From the NCBI RefSeq assembly GCF_024700885.2, contig NZ_CP117016.1: DNA of 64,000 bases; one strand, 5' to 3'. A model generated the notes under the pieces. It did no database searches, was not told where the DNA came from, and was given only the letters and a program-made list of their open reading frames with translations. Numbering within the stretch: the stretch's first letter is position 1; each line of letters opens with the position of its first letter. The stretch is from Escherichia coli (GTDB lineage: Bacteria; Pseudomonadota; Gammaproteobacteria; Enterobacterales; Enterobacteriaceae). This document shows positions 1-33,206 of this stretch, piece by piece. Made by a program: the position numbers and the translations under genes.

Positions 1-806
1 GTAAGCTCCAGTGCCTGACATAACGCAGAAAAAAGCTTGTCATTACCACAACAAATAGTAATCGGCTTATCCTGAGTATCAAAAACATCAAAAGGTGCCA
101 TGTAGGGATGGCGATTTCCCAGGCGTTGTGGTGACTTCCCTGTCGCAATATATGCCATCAGACCATGCTCCAGAAAACTCAGCGTGGCATCAAACATCGC
201 TATATCGACATGCGCCCCTCTCTGGCTCTTTTCGCGGCCATAAAGTGCACTCACTATTCCGCTGAATAAATAGACACCGCCACATAAATCCGCAAGAGAG
301 GTACCCACGCGCACTGGCGGAGCATCAGGGTACCCTGTTTCCATCATTATCCCGCTCATTGCCTGAATAATGGTATCGTAGGCAGGAGCATCTTTTAACG
401 GACCGGTATGCCCGAAACCCGACGATGAAGCATATATGAGGCGCGGGTTGATTTCTTGTAACCTTTCCCATGAAAACCCCAGTTTTTCCATTGTACCTGG
501 GCGAAAATTCTCAGCTAATACATCCGCTTGTTTAAGCATATTTATAAATATGCTTTTATCGTGATCATTCTTTAAATCAAGAACCACACTCTCTTTGCCA
601 TGATTAATAAAACTGTAATAGAGTGACTGTCCATCCACATAGGGACCAAATGTGCGGGTATCATCACCATGACCTGGCGGCTCAACTTTAATTACCCTTG
701 CGCCCATATTACAAAGAAGTTGAGTTCCGAAAGGCCCATTAAGGACATGCGTCATATCGATAACTAATAAGCCTTCAAACGGCCCTTTACATTCATTATT
801 GGTCAT
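1..806 (-). CDS. yfdE: Acetyl-CoA:oxalate CoA-transferase (family III CoA-transferase); 5' part only, 3' end lies beyond the window start
   Basis: Minus-strand frame open to the window edge; N-terminus MTNNECKGPFEGLLVIDMTHVLNGP read from the ATG at 804-806; sits next to yfdV-oxc-frc. Confidence 0.8.
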   Translation of the reverse strand, partial: MTNNECKGPFEGLLVIDMTHVLNGPFGTQLLCNMGARVIKVEPPGHGDDTRTFGPYVDGQSLYYSFINHGKESVVLDLKNDHDKSIFINMLKQADVLAENFRPGTMEKLGFSWERLQEINPRLIYASSSGFGHTGPLKDAPAYDTIIQAMSGIMMETGYPDAPPVRVGTSLADLCGGVYLFSGIVSALYGREKSQRGAHVDIAMFDATLSFLEHGLMAYIATGKSPQRLGNRHPYMAPFDVFDTQDKPITICCGNDKLFSALCQALEL

Positions 807-879: not shown

Positions 880-1824
880 TTATGAAACCAGTCGACTGAC
901 ATAAATCCACAAGGGAGCCGTGACGACAAAACCCAGTACGCTCACAGCCAATGACGCTGTACCAGTGCGGGTGTAGACATTAAACCGACTGGCAATAATG
1001 ATTCCGGAGAATGCCGGCGGTAAAGCGCCTGCCAGTACCATCATCTGCAAATGTTCGCTGTTCAAATGACATGCCATACCAACGAGAAGCAGCGCCAGTG
1101 GCATCAGAATCAGCTTCAGGAAGGTGTTATAAGCAATTTCGGCACTGAACTCGAATTTATGTGCAGCCAGAGTCAACCCCGCAGCGAATACCGCTACCCC
1201 TGAGTTAGCCTTCGCAATCAGATTAAAGGTTGGGTCCCATGCTGCCGGAATTTTTACCCCAACCAACACCAGGATCGTTGCCAGAACAGGTGCCCATACT
1301 ACTGGCTCCTTTGCCGCAGAAATTAATGCGCTCAGATTACTATTCTTCTTACCATCCGCTCCTGAGGAAGGATTCAGCAAATACAGACCAATAGGAATAG
1401 TAATTGCGTTAACAATAATAGAAATAATTGCTACCACTAAACCTGTTGATACGGAATCACCATAAATAGGGTCGAGAACTGCAAACCCCAGGAATCCGAT
1501 GGTAGGTGAGCCTGCAATTAATGCACATACTGCTGCTTCTGCATGGGTACGTTTAAAAAATTTGTAGCAACCAAACCAGGAGAAAAAGAAACATCCGACA
1601 ATAACCACAAGTGATACAAGGGTCAGGCGAGTGTCCGCAAAAATCATTTCCCTGTTTGCCCGGGTAATAGAAACAAATAGGGCCGCAGGAAGAGCGTAGT
1701 TTAATACCAGTTTATTAAATGCCCGAGCTTGATCTTCTGAAAAAGTTTCTCGTCTGCCGCTAAAATAACCCAACAGCATGATTACGATAATAGGCAATAA
1801 ATCGCCAATAAAAAATGTTAGCAT
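880..1824 (-). CDS. yfdV: AEC-family (auxin efflux carrier-like) membrane transporter
   Basis: 314-aa polytopic membrane protein [21 protein letters not shown]; position between yfdE and oxc. Confidence 0.85.
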
Positions 1825-1892: not shown

Positions 1893-3587
1893 TTAATTAC
1901 CAGCGACTTGTTTTGGGTTAAGTTTGGTAATATGGCCACTTTCAGTTCCTGCTGCAGGGTCGATGACCACATTAATAATGGTCGGTTTGCGCGACTGAAT
2001 ACCGGTAGTTAAAGCATGACGAAGTTCATCTGTCGTGGTGACGTTATAACCAACGCCACGAAACGCATCCATTAATTTGTCATACCTTGCATGGTGCAAT
2101 AGATCTGTTGGTGATGGTGCACCAGCGCCACTGAGATCAACACCGTCTCCTCTGTAGATGCCGCCATTATTAAAAATAACGATCGTCACCGGCAGGTTAT
2201 ATCGACAAATCGTTTCAATCTCCATCCCACTGAAACCAAAAGCACTATCACCTTCAATGGCGACAACCGGAGAACCAGAGGTCACGCTAGCACCGATGGC
2301 ATAGCCCATACCGATGCCCATGACACCCCAGGTGCCACAATCCAGACGACGACGTGGTTTATACATATCAATAATATTTCGTGCATTATCCAAGGTATTT
2401 GCCCCTTCATTAACTAAATAAATATCCTGGTTCTCACGCAATACATCGCGCACAGCACTCAATGCATTAAAGTAATTTAATGGTTGGGTATCTGTACTTA
2501 ACTTTTCATGCATTTTTTGCGCATTTTGCTGCTTGTGGATATTTAAAATATCGCGCCACACCAGCGGAGTCGTAAATGTGTTTTGTTTCAATTCTGCCAG
2601 CATACCTTGCATACTGGATGCAATATCGCCAACGACTGGCACAGCAATGGGGCGGTTGCTGTCAATTTCCTGCGGTTCAATATCCAGTTGAATAAACTGT
2701 GTATCTGCCGCCCATCCTTTTTTACCGTGCGCCAGTAACCAATTCAGTCGTGCACCAACAAGCATGACAACGTCAGCATTTGCCAGGGCAAACGAACGCG
2801 CAGCTGCCGCAGAAAGTGGATGCGTATCTTCCAGGATCCCTTTCGCCATAGACATTGGCAGGAATGGAATCTGGGCACTTTCAATAAATTCACGAAGCTG
2901 TTCATCAGCTTGTGAATACGCCGCGCCTTTGCCAAGGATAACTAATGGACGTTCAGCTTTTGCTAAAAGCGAAATTGCGCTAGTGACTGACTTCGGGCAT
3001 GGCAATAATGCTGGCGACGGATTTTCAACTTTAACAATCGTGGTTAACGCTTCGTCTTTTTCCATCGTCGCGGCCAGGACATTTGCTGGTAAATCAAGAT
3101 AAACTCCGCCAGGGCGACCCGATACTGAGACCCGGATAGCGCGTGCCAATGCAATGCCAAGATCCTGCGGCTGATTAACGCGGAATGCTGCTTTGGCATA
3201 CGGTTTTGCCGCATTCATTTGGTCCAGCTCTTCATAATCACCTTGCTGTAGGTCGACGATCGCGCGGTCGCTGGAGCCGCTAATCATGATCATCGGAAAA
3301 CCATTTACCGTTGCGTTGGCCAATGCGGTCAAACCATTGAGGAATCCTGGCGCAGACACTGTCAGGCAGATCCCCGGTTTTTGGGTAAGAAAACCGCTTG
3401 CCGCAGCGGCATAGCCTGCCGACTGCTCATGACGAAAACCAATATAACGAATGCCTTCCGCCTGGGCATGGCGCGCCATATCCGTCACAGGAATACCTAC
3501 AACACCATAAATAGTGTCAATATCATTCTGTTTTAATGCTTCAACGATGATATGCATACCATCTGTCATTTGAAGTTGATCTGACAT
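1893..3587 (-). CDS. oxc: Oxalyl-CoA decarboxylase (thiamine-diphosphate dependent)
   Basis: 564-aa ORF with TPP-enzyme fold motifs (GVVGIPV near the N-terminus, [15 protein letters not shown] near the C-terminus); adjacent to frc. Confidence 0.9.
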
Positions 3588-3640: not shown

Positions 3641-4891
3641 TCAGATGGCGTGGTTTTGCTTCATTGCAGCAATTTCATCGTCGCTATAACCCAGCTCCTG
3701 CAATACAGCAGCGGTATGTTCACCTAATAGCGGCGCAGCTTTAATATCCGGCGTAAAGGCAGAGAATTTCATTGGACAACCAACTGTCAGATATTTTCCA
3801 CGCAACGGTTGTTCCACTTCGACGACACTGCCACTTTGGCGCAAAGAGGGATCAAGTGAAATTTCTTTCATACTTAAAACCGGTGCGCAAGGAATATCAA
3901 ACTGAGTCAAATAGGCCACCGCTTCATGTTTATCAATAGTGACAGTGTATTTTTCGATTTCAGCAAAAATATCGAAAATATGTGGCTGTCGGGCATGGGC
4001 TGTACTGTATGCCGGATCGGTAATCCAATCTGGTTTGCCGATGGCTTTACAGGTGTTTTCCCAGTTTTGCTCCTGAATAGTGAAATAAATATAGGCGTTA
4101 GGATCGGTTTCCCAGCCTTTACATTTCAGGATCCAGCCAGGCTGACCGCCACCACCCGCATTACCTCCGCGGGGAACTGCATCACCAAATGTGCCATTCG
4201 GATACTGCGGGTATTCTTCCAGATAACCCAATTTATCGAGACGCTGCTGGTCGCGTAATTTCACGCGGCAAAGGTTCAATACGGCATCCTGCATTGACAT
4301 GGTAACTCGTTGACCACGCCCCGTTTTTTCGCGATGCAGCAAAGCAGCAAGTAAACCGATCAGCAAATGCATTCCGGTGTTGCTGTCACCCAACGCTGCA
4401 GCGCTTACCAGCGGCGGGCCGTCCCAAAAACCTGTAGTGGATGCCGCACCACCCGCTGCCTGAGCAACGTTTTCATAGGCTTTTACATTCACATAAGGCG
4501 AACACTCATCAAACCCTTTGATCGAACCAAAAATCAAACGTGGATTGATTTCTTGAATATGCTCCCAGGTGAAGCCCATGTGATCAATGGCCCCTGGATG
4601 AAAGTTCTCGACTAAGATATCAGCTTCGCGGATCAGCTTTTCCATTACCTCTTTGCCTTCCGCTGTTTTGGTATTTAATTCAATAGAACGTTTGTTACTG
4701 TTAAGCATGGTGAAGTAAAGCGCATCGATATCAGGAATATCTCGCAGCTGGTGACGCGTTACGTCACCAACGCCGGGACGTTCAATTTTAATGACGTCAG
4801 CGCCAAACCAGGCCAGCATTTGAGTACAAGATGGGCCAGATTGCACACCGGTGAAATCGAGAACTTTAATTCCTTGAAGTGGAGTTGACAT
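3641..4891 (-). CDS. frc: Formyl-CoA:oxalate CoA-transferase
   Basis: 416-aa ORF, N-terminus [43 protein letters not shown] typical of family III CoA-transferases. Confidence 0.9.
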
Positions 4892-5142
4892 AGCAATACC
4901 TATTAGTTAATTAAATATATGTTAATTTAGCGTTTATTTAAGGCATAACGCCCTCTATAAATAATCCGCAAAATATCGTCGTAGCTGCACTCGATATTTT
5001 TAAATTCCTGTATCAAGTGCTGAAAATCATTTCATCGCCACTTCCAATTCCTTTCTGCATGGTAAGTAGTGAGGACGAAAAGAAGAATATGATAAATATT
5101 GGTTCGCGGTAATCAGAGAGAGCCGCGACATTTGTGATGTTA

Positions 5143-5160
5143 TTCTTACAACTGTAAGAA
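5143..5160. promoter_or_regulatory. Candidate EvgA box: perfect 18-bp palindrome TTCTTACA-AC-TGTAAGAA, about 250 bp upstream of frc
   Basis: Exact 8-N2-8 inverted repeat read directly; matches the EvgA box consensus TTCPyTACA-N2-TGTAPuGAA as I recall it. Confidence 0.5.
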
Positions 5161-5403
5161 GCGCCGGTGATTTACAAGTAAGGGTATGATTACGCCTTTT
5201 AAAGCGTACCATAAAACATAACATAATAAATGATTTGTGATGACACGGGATTATTGCGGTTTACTTTGAGGAAGATAAAATGCGAGTTTATAGAACCGCG
5301 AGCGCCAAATAATTTTATGACCACAACCTGTCGTATTGTGGTCATAAAAAATTGTCGGCTGGAGGGAGTTAAATCCTTTACCTCAATATACTGCCTGTCA
5401 GCG

Positions 5404-6036
5404 TTAGTTCACAAACAGTGCTTCGCTATCGACGATGATTCCATCTTCCGCACCTTTAAGCGCCAGGTTTGCCTCGTAGTATTGCTTTTTATCAAGCAGT
5501 TTCTGCGCATCAGCAAGTGCATTACGAGTCTGTTTGAGCGGCATCAGATATTGGTTTTCCATTACGCCAACACCGGCCAGGCGCAGCTCTTCCATTGCGC
5601 CCTTTTTATCCCCTTTCGCCATTTTTTCGTTGGCAATTTTTATCGCGGCTTCTTTTTCGGGTGTCGCTACATAACTCTCAGAAATTCCGACAGATGCATT
5701 AATGACAATATATTGGTCATCATTGACATTGGTCTTTTTACCTGGCTTAGCGAACTTTGCCCATTCGGTACTGTCATCTGACAACAAAGCTGAAGCTTCA
5801 TTGGTCAGTTCTTTTGCCTTTTCCGGATCGCCATGAAACAGAGCCAGGCGCGCTACCTGCACGTCACGCATCGCATATAAACCTTGTTCAGAGATACGCT
5901 CTGCTGCTGCCGTTTTCTGGGTTTGCTGAACTTGCTGAGTTTGCTGTTGTGCCGCTACCGGTGCATTATCAGCCGCCCATACAGTTGAAGATGCCAGAAT
6001 TGCTGTGACCATCGTAGCCATAATTAAACGTTTCAT
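5404..6036 (-). CDS. yfdX: YfdX-family periplasmic protein (signal peptide, EvgA-regulon member)
   Basis: 210-aa ORF with N-terminal signal peptide [21 protein letters not shown]; position between frc and ypdI. Confidence 0.85.
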
Positions 6037-6133
6037 ACTTACCTCATTCTTTAACAGTTTTAGAAAACGCCGCCATCATATTGGGTGAGCATGAAATGAG
6101 AAATCAGAGAGCAACGGTCATTTTGAAAGGGTT

Positions 6134-6151
6134 ATCTTACAGTTGTAGTTA
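6134..6151. promoter_or_regulatory. Weak EvgA-box-like inverted repeat upstream of yfdX
   Basis: aTCTTACA-gt-TGTAGtta, about 13 of 16 positions match the consensus. Confidence 0.3.
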
Positions 6152-6171
6152 TTATCGCAAGAAGTATTTTA

Positions 6172-6189
6172 GTCTTACAATTGTAGGAA
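6172..6189. promoter_or_regulatory. EvgA-box-like inverted repeat upstream of yfdX
   Basis: gTCTTACA-at-TGTAGGAA, 15 of 16 positions match the consensus; about 140 bp upstream of the yfdX start. Confidence 0.45.
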
Positions 6190-6331
6190 TATGCTTCCTG
6201 TCGCAGAGAACTATTCTTATATACCACAAAGAGATGTCATTTATTATATCGATGTAAATACTGATTAATTAAATGTAAATACAGCCATAACATCGTAGGT
6301 TCTCAGTGAGCCATTCTCAGGATAACTTTCT

Positions 6332-6607
6332 ATGAAAGTAAACTTAATGCTTTTTAGCTTATTTTTATTGGTCTCTATTATGGCATGCAATGTTTTTGCA
6401 TTTTCCATTTCTGGTGGTGGAAGTGAGACGAGCTATAAAGAGACAGAAAAAACGTCAGTGATGACGACAACTCATTCTACAAAACTTCAGCCATCACAGG
6501 CGATTTTGTTTAAGATGAGAGAAGATGCGCTACCATTAAATCTCACAGAAGACATCACGCCCCCTTTTCCGACAAAGGCGAATTATCTTATTCATCCTGT
6601 GCGATAG
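6332..6607 (+). CDS. ypdI: Small putative lipoprotein
   Basis: 91-aa ORF with signal peptide and lipobox-like SIMAC motif; position matches ypdI. Confidence 0.65.
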   Translation: MKVNLMLFSLFLLVSIMACNVFAFSISGGGSETSYKETEKTSVMTTTHSTKLQPSQAILFKMREDALPLNLTEDITPPFPTKANYLIHPVR

Positions 6608-8690: not shown

Positions 8691-9929
8691 TTATTCCGCG
8701 TTTTCGTGAATATGTTTGCTGCTGGCGGGTAGTAAACCATCGGCACGGAACATCGCTTTAATCCCACGAATCGCCTGACGAATACGGTCGCGGTTTTCAA
8801 TCAGTGCAAAGCGAACATGCGTGTCGCCGTAGTCGCCAAAGCCAATCCCCGGAGAGACACAGACCTTCGCTTCGTTCAGCAGCTTCTTGGCAAATTCCAG
8901 CGAGCCCATGGCAGCATACGGTTCCGGGATTTTCGCCCAGACATACATCGAAGCCTTCGGCATTTCGACCATCCAGCCCGCTTCATGCAGCCCTTTTACC
9001 AGTACATCACGGCGGCGTTTGTACTGTTCAGCAATGTCGCGCACGCACTGTTGATCGCCCTCCAGCGCCGCAATCGCTGCCACCTGCAACGGCGTAAAGG
9101 TGCCGTAATCGTGATAGCTTTTAATACGTGCCAGCGCGCTGACCAGCGTTTTGTTGCCAACCATAAAGCCGATACGCCAGCCCGCCATGTTGTAGCTTTT
9201 CGACAGCGTAAAGAACTCGACCGCCACATCGCGTGCACCCGGCACCTGCATGATTGACGGCGCTTTCCAGCCATCGTAGACGATATCGGCATAGGCCAGG
9301 TCATGGACCACCAGCACATCGTAGCGTTTCGCCAGCGCCACAACCTTCTCAAAGAATTCCAGCTCCACGCATTGCGCGGTTGGATTCGACGGGAAGCCGA
9401 GGATCATCATCTTCGGTTTCGGATAACTTTCGCGAATGGCGCGTTCCAGTTCGTTGAAGAAATCGACACCTTCCACCAGCGGCACTGAGCGTACCTGCGC
9501 CCCGGCAATCACCGCGCCGTAAATATGAATCGGGTAGCTTGGATTAGGCACCAGTACAGTGTCACCATGATCCAGCGTCGCCAGCATCAGATGCGCCAGT
9601 CCCTCTTTCGAACCAATGGTGACGATGGCTTCTGATTCCGGGTCGATCTCGACGTCGTAGCGATCCTGATACCAGCGGGAAATGGCGCGACGTAACCGCG
9701 GAATGCCGCGTGAAGTAGAGTAACCATGCGTGTCCGGTCGCTGGGCCACCGTACATAATTTTTCGACGATATGCGGCGGAGTCGCACCGTCCGGGTTACC
9801 CATACTGAAATCGATAATATCTTCGCCGCGCCGACGCGCAGCCATTTTCAGTTCAGCGGTAATATTAAAAACGTAGGGCGGGAGACGATCAATGCGCGTA
9901 AAGCGACGTTCAAGGCGAGTGTCAGCCAT
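8691..9929 (-). CDS. alaC: Glutamate-pyruvate aminotransferase (PLP-dependent aminotransferase class I)
   Basis: 412-aa [51 protein letters not shown]; aminotransferase fold motifs. Confidence 0.9.
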
Positions 9930-29763: not shown

Positions 29764-29839
<76 letters not shown>

Positions 29840-29878
29840 ACGATGCGTTTACGTACCAAATTTGCTGGGTGCAAAATT

Positions 29879-29954
<76 letters not shown>

Positions 29955-32652: not shown

Positions 32653-32728
32653 GGGTGATTAGCTCAGCTGGGAGAGCACCTCCCTTACAAGGAGGGGGTC
32701 GGCGGTTCGATCCCGTCATCACCCACCA
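32653..32728 (+). tRNA. valU: tRNA-Val (anticodon TAC)
   Basis: GGGTGATTAGCTCAGCTGGGAGAGCACCTCCCTTACAAGGAGGGGGTCGGCGGTTCGATCCCGTCATCACCCACCA. Confidence 0.9.
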
Positions 32729-32772
32729 ACTACTTTATGTAGTCTCCGCCGTGTAGCAAGAAATTGAGAAGT

Positions 32773-32848
32773 GGGTGATTAGCTCAGCTGGGAGAGCACC
32801 TCCCTTACAAGGAGGGGGTCGGCGGTTCGATCCCGTCATCACCCACCA
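32773..32848 (+). tRNA. valX: tRNA-Val (anticodon TAC)
   Basis: Identical 76-nt copy. Confidence 0.9.
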
Positions 32849-32894
32849 CTTTCTCGCCAGCTAAATTTCTTGTAAAAATGTGAAGTACCGAAGT

Positions 32895-32970
32895 GGGTGA
32901 TTAGCTCAGCTGGGAGAGCACCTCCCTTACAAGGAGGGGGTCGGCGGTTCGATCCCGTCATCACCCACCA
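32895..32970 (+). tRNA. valY: tRNA-Val (anticodon TAC)
   Basis: Identical 76-nt copy. Confidence 0.9.
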
Positions 32971-32974
32971 CTTC

Positions 32975-33050
32975 GGGTCGTTAGCTCAGTTGGTAGAGCA
33001 GTTGACTTTTAATCAATTGGTCGCAGGTTCGAATCCTGCACGACCCACCA
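32975..33050 (+). tRNA. lysV: tRNA-Lys (anticodon TTT)
   Basis: GGGTCGTTAGCTCAGTTGGTAGAGCAGTTGACTTTTAATCAATTGGTCGCAGGTTCGAATCCTGCACGACCCACCA, 4 bp after valY. Confidence 0.9.
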
Positions 33051-33054
33051 ATGT

Positions 33055-33081
33055 AAAAAAGCGCCCTAAAGGCGCTTTTTT
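33055..33081 (+). terminator. Rho-independent terminator of the tRNA operon
   Basis: aaaaaa-GCGCC-ctaaa-GGCGC-tttttt. Confidence 0.7.
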
Positions 33082-33082
33082 G

Positions 33083-33206
33083 CTATCTGCGATACTCAAA
33101 GATTCGAACCTGCAGCAGGTTCGAGTTGAGCGCAGCGAAACAACGGAGCCGCTCGCGGCGACGGCCCGAAGGGCGAGCGAAGCGAGTCATCCTGCACGAC
33201 CCACCA
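33083..33206. repeat. Scrambled tRNA-Lys-derived fragments ending in a second copy of the tRNA 3' end
   Basis: gattcgaacctgc (33101-33113) is the reverse complement of the lysV T-arm; gcaggttcga (33115-33124) is a direct T-arm fragment; atcctgcacgacccacca (33189-33206) duplicates lysV 33033-33050. Confidence 0.6.

What the first reader, a model, noticed from the sequence alone, without database searches (positions are those of the whole stretch)
5143..5160. Perfect EvgA-box palindrome upstream of frc
TTCTTACA-AC-TGTAAGAA is an exact 18-bp inverted repeat matching the EvgA box consensus as I recall it. It lies between the yfdX stop and the frc start, suggesting direct EvgA control of frc-oxc-yfdV-yfdE in addition to read-through from yfdX.
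Basis: partly seen in the sequence, partly recalled or inferred. Interest (0 to 1): 0.35.

Follow-up and report, generated by a model that had tools for sequence, protein, structure and literature searches.

The report
Known EvgA binding site upstream frc
The palindrome is real and is the already described binding site through which the acid-response regulator EvgA switches on the E. coli oxalate-degradation genes frc-oxc-yfdV-yfdE, so the finding is correct but ordinary.

Summary
The window is E. coli chromosome (yfdV, oxc, frc, yfdX on the minus strand). TTCTTACA-AC-TGTAAGAA sits exactly at 5143-5160. That is 251 nt upstream of the frc ATG and 243 nt downstream of the yfdX stop.

A perfect 8-N2-8 palindrome is itself expected about once per 64 kb. 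What is not chance is the zero-mismatch fit to TTCYTACA-N2-TGTARGAA. I found the same motif (≤2 mismatches) upstream of yfdX, safA, ydeP, yegR and emrK/evgA, and nowhere else in about 91 kb scanned.

At least 5363 of the 5407 E. coli genomes carrying this spacer have the box unchanged. It is also retained upstream of frc in Yersinia vastinensis. That species carries the whole emrKY-evgAS-yfdEVUWX island, with an EvgA 94% identical to K-12's. Neutral sites there are only about 55-60% identical.

Papers read here state that EvgA binds inverted repeats upstream of both yfdX and yfdWUVE, and that it binds the frc promoter.

Verdict: observation confirmed, interpretation supported, already known. 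The exact transcription start and the role of a conserved 34-nt block downstream of the box remain inferred.

The parts
5143..5160 (-). EvgA box, 18-bp inverted repeat. It reads TTCTTACAGTTGTAAGAA on the transcribed (minus) strand. Perfect match to TTCYTACA-N2-TGTARGAA.
   Evidence: Invariant in 10 diverse E. coli. The exact 30-mer is present in 4326 + 1037 genomes. Identical in K-12.
5109..5142 (-). Conserved 34-nt block directly downstream of the box (TAACATCACAAATGTCGCGGCTCTCTCTGATTAC). It is a probable promoter-proximal element. Its function is not established: it could hold secondary EvgA contacts, an RNA polymerase alpha-subunit contact, or a -35 region.
   Evidence: 31 of 34 positions are identical between E. 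coli and Yersinia vastinensis, although the spacer overall is 54% identical. It is invariant in the E. coli sample up to position 5124.
5107..5112 (-). Candidate -35 hexamer TTACCG (inferred).
   Evidence: This is the only promoter-like pair downstream of the box that recurs in all five aligned sequences.
5084..5089 (-). Candidate -10 hexamer TATTCT, with a 17-nt spacer (TATTAT in Y. vastinensis). It predicts a start near 5077, which puts the box centre near -74.5. An E. coli-only alternative is CTGATT-16-TATCAT (5116-5089), with a start near 5082 and the box centre at -69.5. All of this is inferred.
   Evidence: with coordinates read.
3641..4891 (-). frc (yfdW), formyl-CoA:oxalate CoA-transferase. 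First gene of the regulated unit.
1893..3587 (-). oxc (yfdU), oxalyl-CoA decarboxylase.
880..1824 (-). yfdV, putative transporter. yfdE follows and runs towards the window start.
5404..6036 (-). yfdX, the upstream gene, which has its own EvgA box.
5313..5349 (-). Terminator-like hairpin after yfdX: a 14-15 bp stem followed by UUAUUUGG. It would separate yfdX transcription from frc.
   Evidence: Free energy -25.4 kcal/mol, z = -4.96. A compensatory A-U to G-C change occurs in strain WP2. Conserved in Y. vastinensis.
6172..6189 (-). Sister EvgA box upstream of yfdX (TTCCTACAATTGTAAGAC on the minus strand, 1 mismatch). A weaker match lies at 6134-6151.

Best explanation
The 18-bp palindrome is the operator for a dimer of the NarL/FixJ-type response regulator EvgA. 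When the sensor kinase EvgS is activated (mild acid, alkali metals), phosphorylated EvgA binds the two half-sites TTCTTACA / TGTAAGAA. It then activates a weak sigma-70 promoter just downstream that drives frc-oxc-yfdV-yfdE. This promoter is separate from the EvgA-activated yfdX promoter, whose transcripts are largely stopped by the hairpin at 5349-5313. What is inferred: the position of the promoter (candidate -35 at 5112-5107 and -10 at 5089-5084, start near 5077, box centre about -70 to -75, 5' leader about 185 nt); whether activation goes through RNA polymerase contact, through additional weaker EvgA dimers on the conserved 34-nt block, or through relief of H-NS silencing; and how much read-through from yfdX contributes.
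For: The exact consensus match is at 5143-5160. The same motif, with at most 2 mismatches, lies upstream of yfdX, safA, ydeP, yegR and in the emrK/evgA spacer of K-12. No other such match occurs in about 91 kb scanned, where about 0.08 would be expected by my calculation. The box is invariant in 10 diverse E. coli, while 55 of 543 spacer columns vary and three polymorphic sites lie within 6 nt upstream of the box. At least 5363 of 5407 genomes carry the box exactly. In Yersinia vastinensis the frc box keeps 15 of 16 half-site positions while both spacer bases differ. The box plus 34 nt downstream is the best-conserved part of a spacer that is 54% identical overall; frc third codon positions are 61% identical. 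That species also has evgS, an EvgA 94% identical to K-12's, and boxes at yfdX and evgA/emrK. Literature: EvgA binds inverted repeats upstream of yfdX and yfdWUVE (PMC3720670). EvgA binds the frc promoter region strongly (PMC8147483). frc/oxc are the most induced genes in evgS-constitutive mutants (PMC4283999). yfdX, frc, yfdV and oxc are among the top acid-induced genes (PMC10746267).
Against: No transcription start site for frc could be found in the held literature, and the primary papers could not be read. The simple promoter scan found no sigma-70-like site on the minus strand between the box and frc. My candidates score only 5.4-6.5 bits. RpoD genomic SELEX places a predicted constitutive promoter (TTTATA-18-AATAAT in K-12, equivalent to window 5279-5250) upstream of the box rather than downstream. 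To my knowledge, box mutagenesis was done for ydeP and safA-ydeO but not for frc (from memory).
Confidence: 0.9

Rival explanations
1. Mechanistic variant: EvgA bound at the box acts mainly by displacing or counter-silencing H-NS on the AT-rich yfdX-frc spacer. That would free a promoter RNA polymerase can already use, rather than recruiting the polymerase.
For: The spacer is 37% G+C against 51% for the window. Shimada et al. 2014 list an RpoD holoenzyme SELEX peak in the yfdX-frc spacer and flag it 'HNS'. The box appears to lie about 70-75 bp upstream of the best conserved promoter candidate.
Against: Nothing here tests H-NS binding at this site. The strong conservation of the 34 nt between the box and the candidate -35 suggests specific protein-DNA or protein-protein geometry rather than simple displacement.
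Confidence: 0.2
2. The site is used by another GerE/NarL-family regulator (for example RcsB, alone or with GadE) instead of EvgA.
For: The proximal half-site contains TAAGAAT, which from my memory resembles half of the RcsAB box. RcsB regulates yfdX in Klebsiella pneumoniae (PMC6394985).
Against: The whole 18-mer matches the motif shared by all six EvgA direct-target regions. It travels together with evgA into Yersinia vastinensis. Papers report EvgA binding.
Confidence: 0.04
3. It is a chance palindrome with no function.
For: About one perfect 8-N2-8 palindrome is expected per 64 kb, and the window has another at 536-553.
Against: An exact consensus match is expected about 6e-5 times per window (my calculation). 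The box is conserved across E. coli and in another genus while neutral sites have diverged.
Confidence: 0.01
4. It acts at the RNA level, as a hairpin in yfdX read-through transcripts (attenuator, processing site or terminator).
For: The arms can pair as a 7-bp stem with a 4-nt loop.
Against: Free energy is only -6 kcal/mol with z = -1.76, and 11 of 200 shuffles fold as well. No U-run follows. In Y. vastinensis the T-to-C change in one arm is not compensated in the other. There is no Rfam match.
Confidence: 0.02

Closest known systems
EvgA-binding inverted repeats at ydeP, safA-ydeO, yegR, emrK/evgA and yfdX of E. coli K-12 (Masuda & Church 2002/2003; Itou et al. 2009)
   Same: All share the 18-bp architecture TTCYTACA-N2-TGTARGAA. 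All lie upstream of an EvgA-induced operon. The half-site nearest the gene is GTAAGAA-like in frc, safA, ydeP and emrK. The distance to the ATG (251 nt) is similar to ydeP's (243 nt).
   Different: The frc site is the only one of the six with zero mismatches and perfectly symmetric arms. At yfdX the box overlaps a -35-like TTGTAA with an extended -10, TGcGATAAT. At frc no such promoter follows the box directly.
BvgA binding sites at Bordetella pertussis fha/ptx promoters (BvgA is the homologue EvgA was named after)
   Same: The regulator family is the same (NarL/FixJ receiver plus GerE helix-turn-helix). From my memory, those promoters have a high-affinity inverted repeat well upstream of -35, with lower-affinity dimers filling the gap to the polymerase. 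The frc box appears to be centred about -70 to -75, with a conserved block between it and the -35.
   Different: The half-site sequence differs. Secondary EvgA sites at frc are not demonstrated: the best candidate (ATCACA-AA-TGTCGC, 20 bp downstream of the box centre) matches only 8 of 16 positions and loses its TGT in Y. vastinensis (read).
RcsB / RcsAB box and NarL heptamers (other GerE-family operators)
   Same: Short AT-rich inverted repeats bound by a dimer. A TAAGAAT-like half-site is shared (from memory).
   Different: Spacing and the second half differ, and the full 18-mer does not fit those consensus sequences.

Membership tests
EvgA box (EvgA operator) | 18-bp inverted repeat matching TTCYTACA-N2-TGTARGAA | tested here: met
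   0 mismatches at 5143-5160.
EvgA box (EvgA operator) | Same motif present at the other directly EvgA-activated promoters and not elsewhere | tested here: met
   Matches with at most 2 mismatches lie upstream of yfdX, safA, ydeP, yegR and emrK/evgA. No other such match occurs in the 64-kb window plus 27 kb of K-12.
EvgA box (EvgA operator) | Lies upstream of an operon induced by EvgA overproduction or EvgS activation | tested here: met
   The position was checked here. Induction is taken from papers read here: PMC4283999, PMC3720670 and PMC10746267.
EvgA box (EvgA operator) | EvgA protein binds the sequence | not testable with these tools
   Binding is reported in the literature: PMC3720670 figure legend citing Masuda & Church 2003, and PMC8147483. 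The primary papers are not held.
EvgA box (EvgA operator) | Site is conserved under selection and co-inherited with evgA | tested here: met
   At least 5363 of 5407 E. coli genomes carry it exactly. It is kept in Y. vastinensis together with evgAS. No box is present at frc in the Providencia, Moellerella or Klebsiella sp. BIGb0407 loci; whether those genomes lack evgA was not checked.
EvgA box (EvgA operator) | Mutating the box lowers EvgA-dependent expression of the downstream gene | not testable with these tools
   From memory, this was done for ydeP and b1500-ydeO (Masuda & Church 2003). I know of no such test for frc.
Intrinsic terminator / structured RNA element | Stable hairpin beyond shuffled controls, followed by a U-run or matching an RNA family | tested here: not met
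   Free energy -6 kcal/mol, z = -1.76. No Rfam match.
BvgA-type multi-dimer activator promoter | Additional lower-affinity regulator sites at about 22-bp spacing between the primary site and -35 | tested here: inconclusive
   A conserved 34-nt block exists, but only a weak half-site resemblance was read from the sequence.

The most novel reading that the evidence does not exclude
The frc operator is the single perfect-consensus EvgA site, and so presumably the highest-affinity one. Together with the equally conserved 34-nt block downstream, it could form a BvgA-like promoter in which a far-upstream primary dimer (centre about -70 to -75) nucleates further EvgA binding or counter-silences H-NS. 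This regulator-plus-operator module has also moved as one island (emrKY-evgAS-yfdEVUWX) into Yersinia vastinensis, which conflicts with the review statement that EvgS/EvgA is confined to E. coli and Shigella.
Probability: 0.3. Interest if true: 0.3.

Novelty: already known. Interest (0 to 1): 0.1.

Why it matters
It confirms that a text-only reader can recover a genuine, experimentally described operator, but it adds nothing new about E. coli regulation. The EvgA-frc link explains why the oxalate-decarboxylation (proton-consuming) genes are among the most strongly acid-induced genes. The small additions from this work are three. The frc site is the only perfect one of the six EvgA boxes. A 34-nt block next to it is as conserved as the box and has no assigned function. 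The whole module, binding sites included, occurs in a Yersinia species.

Tried and rejected
- **Primary papers:** Masuda & Church 2002 and 2003 and Fontenot 2013 are not held.
- **Text searches:** 'EvgA box', 'TTCYTACA' and '18 bp inverted repeat' found nothing. No published frc transcription start was found.
- **RNA and small ORFs:** Rfam at a permissive threshold on 4800-6400 gave only a sub-threshold miRNA hit on the yfdX terminator hairpin. Small ORFs in the spacer (20-65 aa) look unconvincing and were not pursued. An RNA hairpin role for the box was rejected.
- **yfdX-like promoter geometry:** at yfdX the box overlaps the -35. I rejected this arrangement for frc because no -10-like hexamer follows at 15-19 nt.
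- **Plus-strand promoter:** a promoter-like site at 5198-5227, which could make the palindrome bidirectional, was not pursued. The region is polymorphic in E. coli and not conserved in Y. vastinensis.
- **Genome-collection scan:** the scan with an Frc N-terminal codon pattern returned no E. albertii, E. fergusonii or E. marmotae locus. Conservation within the genus Escherichia beyond E. coli therefore could not be examined.

Full report
**Observation**

The window is E. coli chromosome. It is 100% identical to strain CFSAN061763 over the spacer and 97.1% identical to K-12. On the minus strand it carries yfdV (880-1824), oxc (1893-3587), frc (3641-4891) and yfdX (5404-6036). Names come from the RefSeq annotation of the homologous K-12 region and from translations.

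TTCTTACAACTGTAAGAA occupies exactly 5143-5160. It has two perfectly complementary 8-nt arms and a 2-nt spacer. It lies 251 nt upstream of the frc ATG and 243 nt downstream of the yfdX stop.

**Is it more than chance?**

As a bare palindrome, no. Shuffles give 1.02 +/- 1.03 perfect 8-N2-8 palindromes per window. The window has two, the other at 536-553.

As a match to a specific motif, yes. It has no mismatch to TTCYTACA-N2-TGTARGAA. The only other matches in the window with up to 3 mismatches are at 6172-6189 (1 mismatch) and 6134-6151 (3 mismatches). Both lie upstream of yfdX.

I fetched the K-12 regions of the other operons that the literature calls direct EvgA targets and scanned them:

| Region | Sequence | Mismatches | Box end to ATG (nt) |
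|---|---|---|---|
| frc | TTCTTACAACTGTAAGAA | 0 | 251 |
| yfdX | GTCTTACAATTGTAGGAA | 1 | 135 |
| safA | TTCTTACAGCTGTAGGCA | 1 | 111 |
| yegR | TTCCTACATAAGTAGGAA | 1 | 106 |
| ydeP | TTCTTACAGGTGTAGGCT | 2 | 243 |
| emrK/evgA spacer | TTCTTACGCCTGTAGGAT | 2 | 173 (emrK) / 224 (evgA) |

No other match with 2 or fewer mismatches occurs in the roughly 91 kb scanned, where I calculate about 0.08 by chance. The frc site is the only perfect one.

**Conservation within E. coli**

- The spacer is present in 5407 of 5426 complete genomes.
- A 30-mer centred on the box is exact in 4326 genomes.
- The same box with an alternative upstream flank (TGACAC instead of CGGCGC) is exact in a further 1037 genomes. 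Together that is at least 5363 of 5407.
- In an alignment of ten diverse strains, 55 of 543 columns vary and three of them fall within 6 nt upstream of the box. The box and the next 20 nt are invariant.
- A divergent E. coli-labelled genome (L014) changes only one spacer base of the box.

**Conservation beyond E. coli**

A collection scan with a degenerate Frc N-terminal codon pattern returned 17 loci. Only three carry a box upstream of frc:

- L014, the divergent E. coli-labelled genome.
- Yersinia vastinensis: TTCTTACACGCGTAAGAA, 259 nt from the ATG.
- Erwinia sp. ErVv1: ATCCTACAGATGTAGGAT, 220 nt from the ATG.

The Providencia, Moellerella and Klebsiella sp. BIGb0407 loci have none.

Y. vastinensis carries the complete island arsRBC-yfdX-frc-oxc-yfdV-yfdE-evgS-evgA-emrKY. 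Its EvgA is 94% identical to K-12 EvgA. It also has boxes upstream of yfdX and in the evgA/emrK spacer.

Between E. coli and Y. vastinensis, Frc is 97% identical. frc third codon positions are only 61% identical, and the yfdX-frc spacer is 54% identical overall. Against that background:

- The box keeps 15 of 16 half-site positions, while both spacer bases differ.
- The 52 nt from 5160 to 5109 are the best-conserved part of the spacer (80-95% in 20-nt windows).
- The longest exact run is 20 nt, at 5149-5130.

This is the pattern expected of a dimer operator whose central two bases are not read.

**Surroundings**

Fifty-five nt after the yfdX stop is a hairpin (5349-5313, minus strand). It has a 14-15 bp stem, free energy -25.4 kcal/mol and z = -4.96, and it is followed by UUAUUUGG. 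It is conserved in Y. vastinensis. In strain WP2 it shows a compensatory A-U to G-C change. It is therefore probably a terminator, which fits frc having its own promoter.

Downstream of the box, one promoter-like pair recurs in all aligned sequences: TTACCG (5112-5107), a 17-nt spacer, then TATTCT (5089-5084). In Y. vastinensis the pair is ATTACA-18-TATTAT. It predicts a start near 5077, a box centre near -74.5 and a leader of about 185 nt. An E. coli-only alternative, CTGATT-16-TATCAT, would give -69.5. These candidates are weak (5.4-6.5 bits) and are inferences.

RpoD genomic SELEX reports a polymerase-binding peak in this spacer, flagged as H-NS-associated. Its predicted promoter (TTTATA-18-AATAAT in K-12, equivalent to window 5279-5250) lies upstream of the box. 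The spacer is AT-rich, 37% G+C.

No Rfam family, convincing small ORF or significant RNA structure is associated with the box.

**Literature**

- PMC3720670 states that EvgA activates the yfdXWUVE genes. [quoted passage not shown] - PMC4283999 finds frc and oxc to be the most induced genes in constitutive evgS mutants. It finds EvgA sites only at genes already known to be EvgA-regulated.
- PMC10746267 lists yfdX, frc, yfdV and oxc among the top acid-induced genes.

From my memory of the Masuda & Church 2003 abstract, AlignACE found the 18-bp inverted repeat in six upstream regions of seven directly regulated operons. Gel shifts showed EvgA binding to all six, and mutagenesis was done at ydeP and b1500-ydeO. 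The paper itself is not held.

**Mechanism**

The best-supported explanation (confidence 0.9) is that the palindrome is the EvgA dimer operator of a separate, EvgA-dependent frc-oxc-yfdV-yfdE promoter. Read-through past the yfdX hairpin would be a secondary route.

It remains open how the bound dimer activates from about 70-75 bp upstream. Three options are direct contact with RNA polymerase, nucleation of further EvgA dimers over the conserved 34-nt block (as its homologue BvgA does), or counter-silencing of H-NS.

Chance, another GerE-family regulator and an RNA-level role are each unlikely, for the reasons given under rival explanations.

**Novelty and score**

The finding is correct and already known, so interest is low. 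The modest additions are:

- The frc box is the only perfect EvgA box.
- The conserved 34-nt block next to it has no assigned function.
- The whole EvgAS module, with its operators, is present in Yersinia vastinensis. The review PMC9496106 says the system is not found outside E. coli and Shigella.

Noticed in passing
window 6134-6189 (minus strand): The yfdX upstream region holds a 1-mismatch EvgA box (6172-6189) whose gene-proximal half contains a -35-like TTGTAA. It is followed after 18 nt by an extended -10, TGcGATAAT (ending at 6151). So at yfdX the box overlaps the -35, unlike at frc. A weaker 3-mismatch box lies at 6134-6151, 38 bp downstream. The arrangement is conserved in Yersinia vastinensis (L026 1633-1700).
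   Followed up: partly
window 5109-5121 and 6101-6112 (minus strand): Both EvgA-controlled regions share the motif CTCTCTGATT(A/T): TCTCTCTGATTAC downstream of the frc box and GCTCTCTGATTT downstream of the yfdX box. TCTGATT is kept at both places in Y. vastinensis. No function is assigned, and an 11-mer shared by two such regions has roughly a 4% chance by my estimate.
   Followed up: partly
window 5161-5166: E. coli has two main haplotypes directly upstream of the box: CACCGGCGC in 4326 genomes and CACTGACAC in 1037 genomes, as sampled in SF-173, M24 and AVS0282. The second creates a -35-like CTGACA that pairs, across a 19-nt spacer containing the EvgA box, with TAACAT. This is probably chance and was not tested.
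   Followed up: partly
L030-L032 (Yersinia vastinensis and related records), 6.4-21.2 kb: The complete island arsRBC-yfdX-frc-oxc-yfdV-yfdE-evgS-evgA-emrKY occurs in three different flanking contexts. EvgA is 94% and Frc 97% identical to E. coli's. This suggests horizontal transfer, and it conflicts with the review statement that EvgS/EvgA occurs only in E. coli and Shigella (PMC9496106).
   Followed up: partly
L033 (Erwinia sp. ErVv1) 9763-9780: A perfect palindrome ATCCTACA-GA-TGTAGGAT (2 mismatches to the EvgA consensus) lies 220 nt upstream of a frc-oxc-yfdV-yfdE cluster. The cluster has no yfdX and no evgAS within 10 kb, and it sits next to a P4-like element (Ogr/Delta, AlpA, D5-type primase). 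It is unknown whether an EvgA-like regulator exists elsewhere in that genome.
   Followed up: no
window 4930-4942 and 4895-4914 (minus strand): Conserved islands in the presumed frc leader are shared with Y. vastinensis: CTTAAATAAACGC and the ribosome-binding region TTATTAAC.AATAGGTA.TGCTATG. The 13-mer has no assigned role.
   Followed up: no
window 5250-5279 (minus strand): In K-12 this stretch reads TTTATA-18-AATAAT, the 'constitutive' RpoD promoter predicted for frc by genomic SELEX (PMC3946193). It lies upstream of the EvgA box. In this window the -35-like hexamer is TTTATC.
   Followed up: partly
window 29764-29954 and 32653-33206: tRNA clusters: two tRNA-Ala(GGC) on the minus strand; three tRNA-Val(UAC) plus tRNA-Lys(UUU) on the plus strand, followed by an RtT element (33081-33206, 51.6 bits).
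   Followed up: no
window 536-553: The only other perfect 8-N2-8 palindrome in the window is GCATATTTATAAATATGC. By K-12 synteny it falls downstream of yfdV, in the stretch where yfdE lies (not annotated here). Its significance is unexamined.
   Followed up: no
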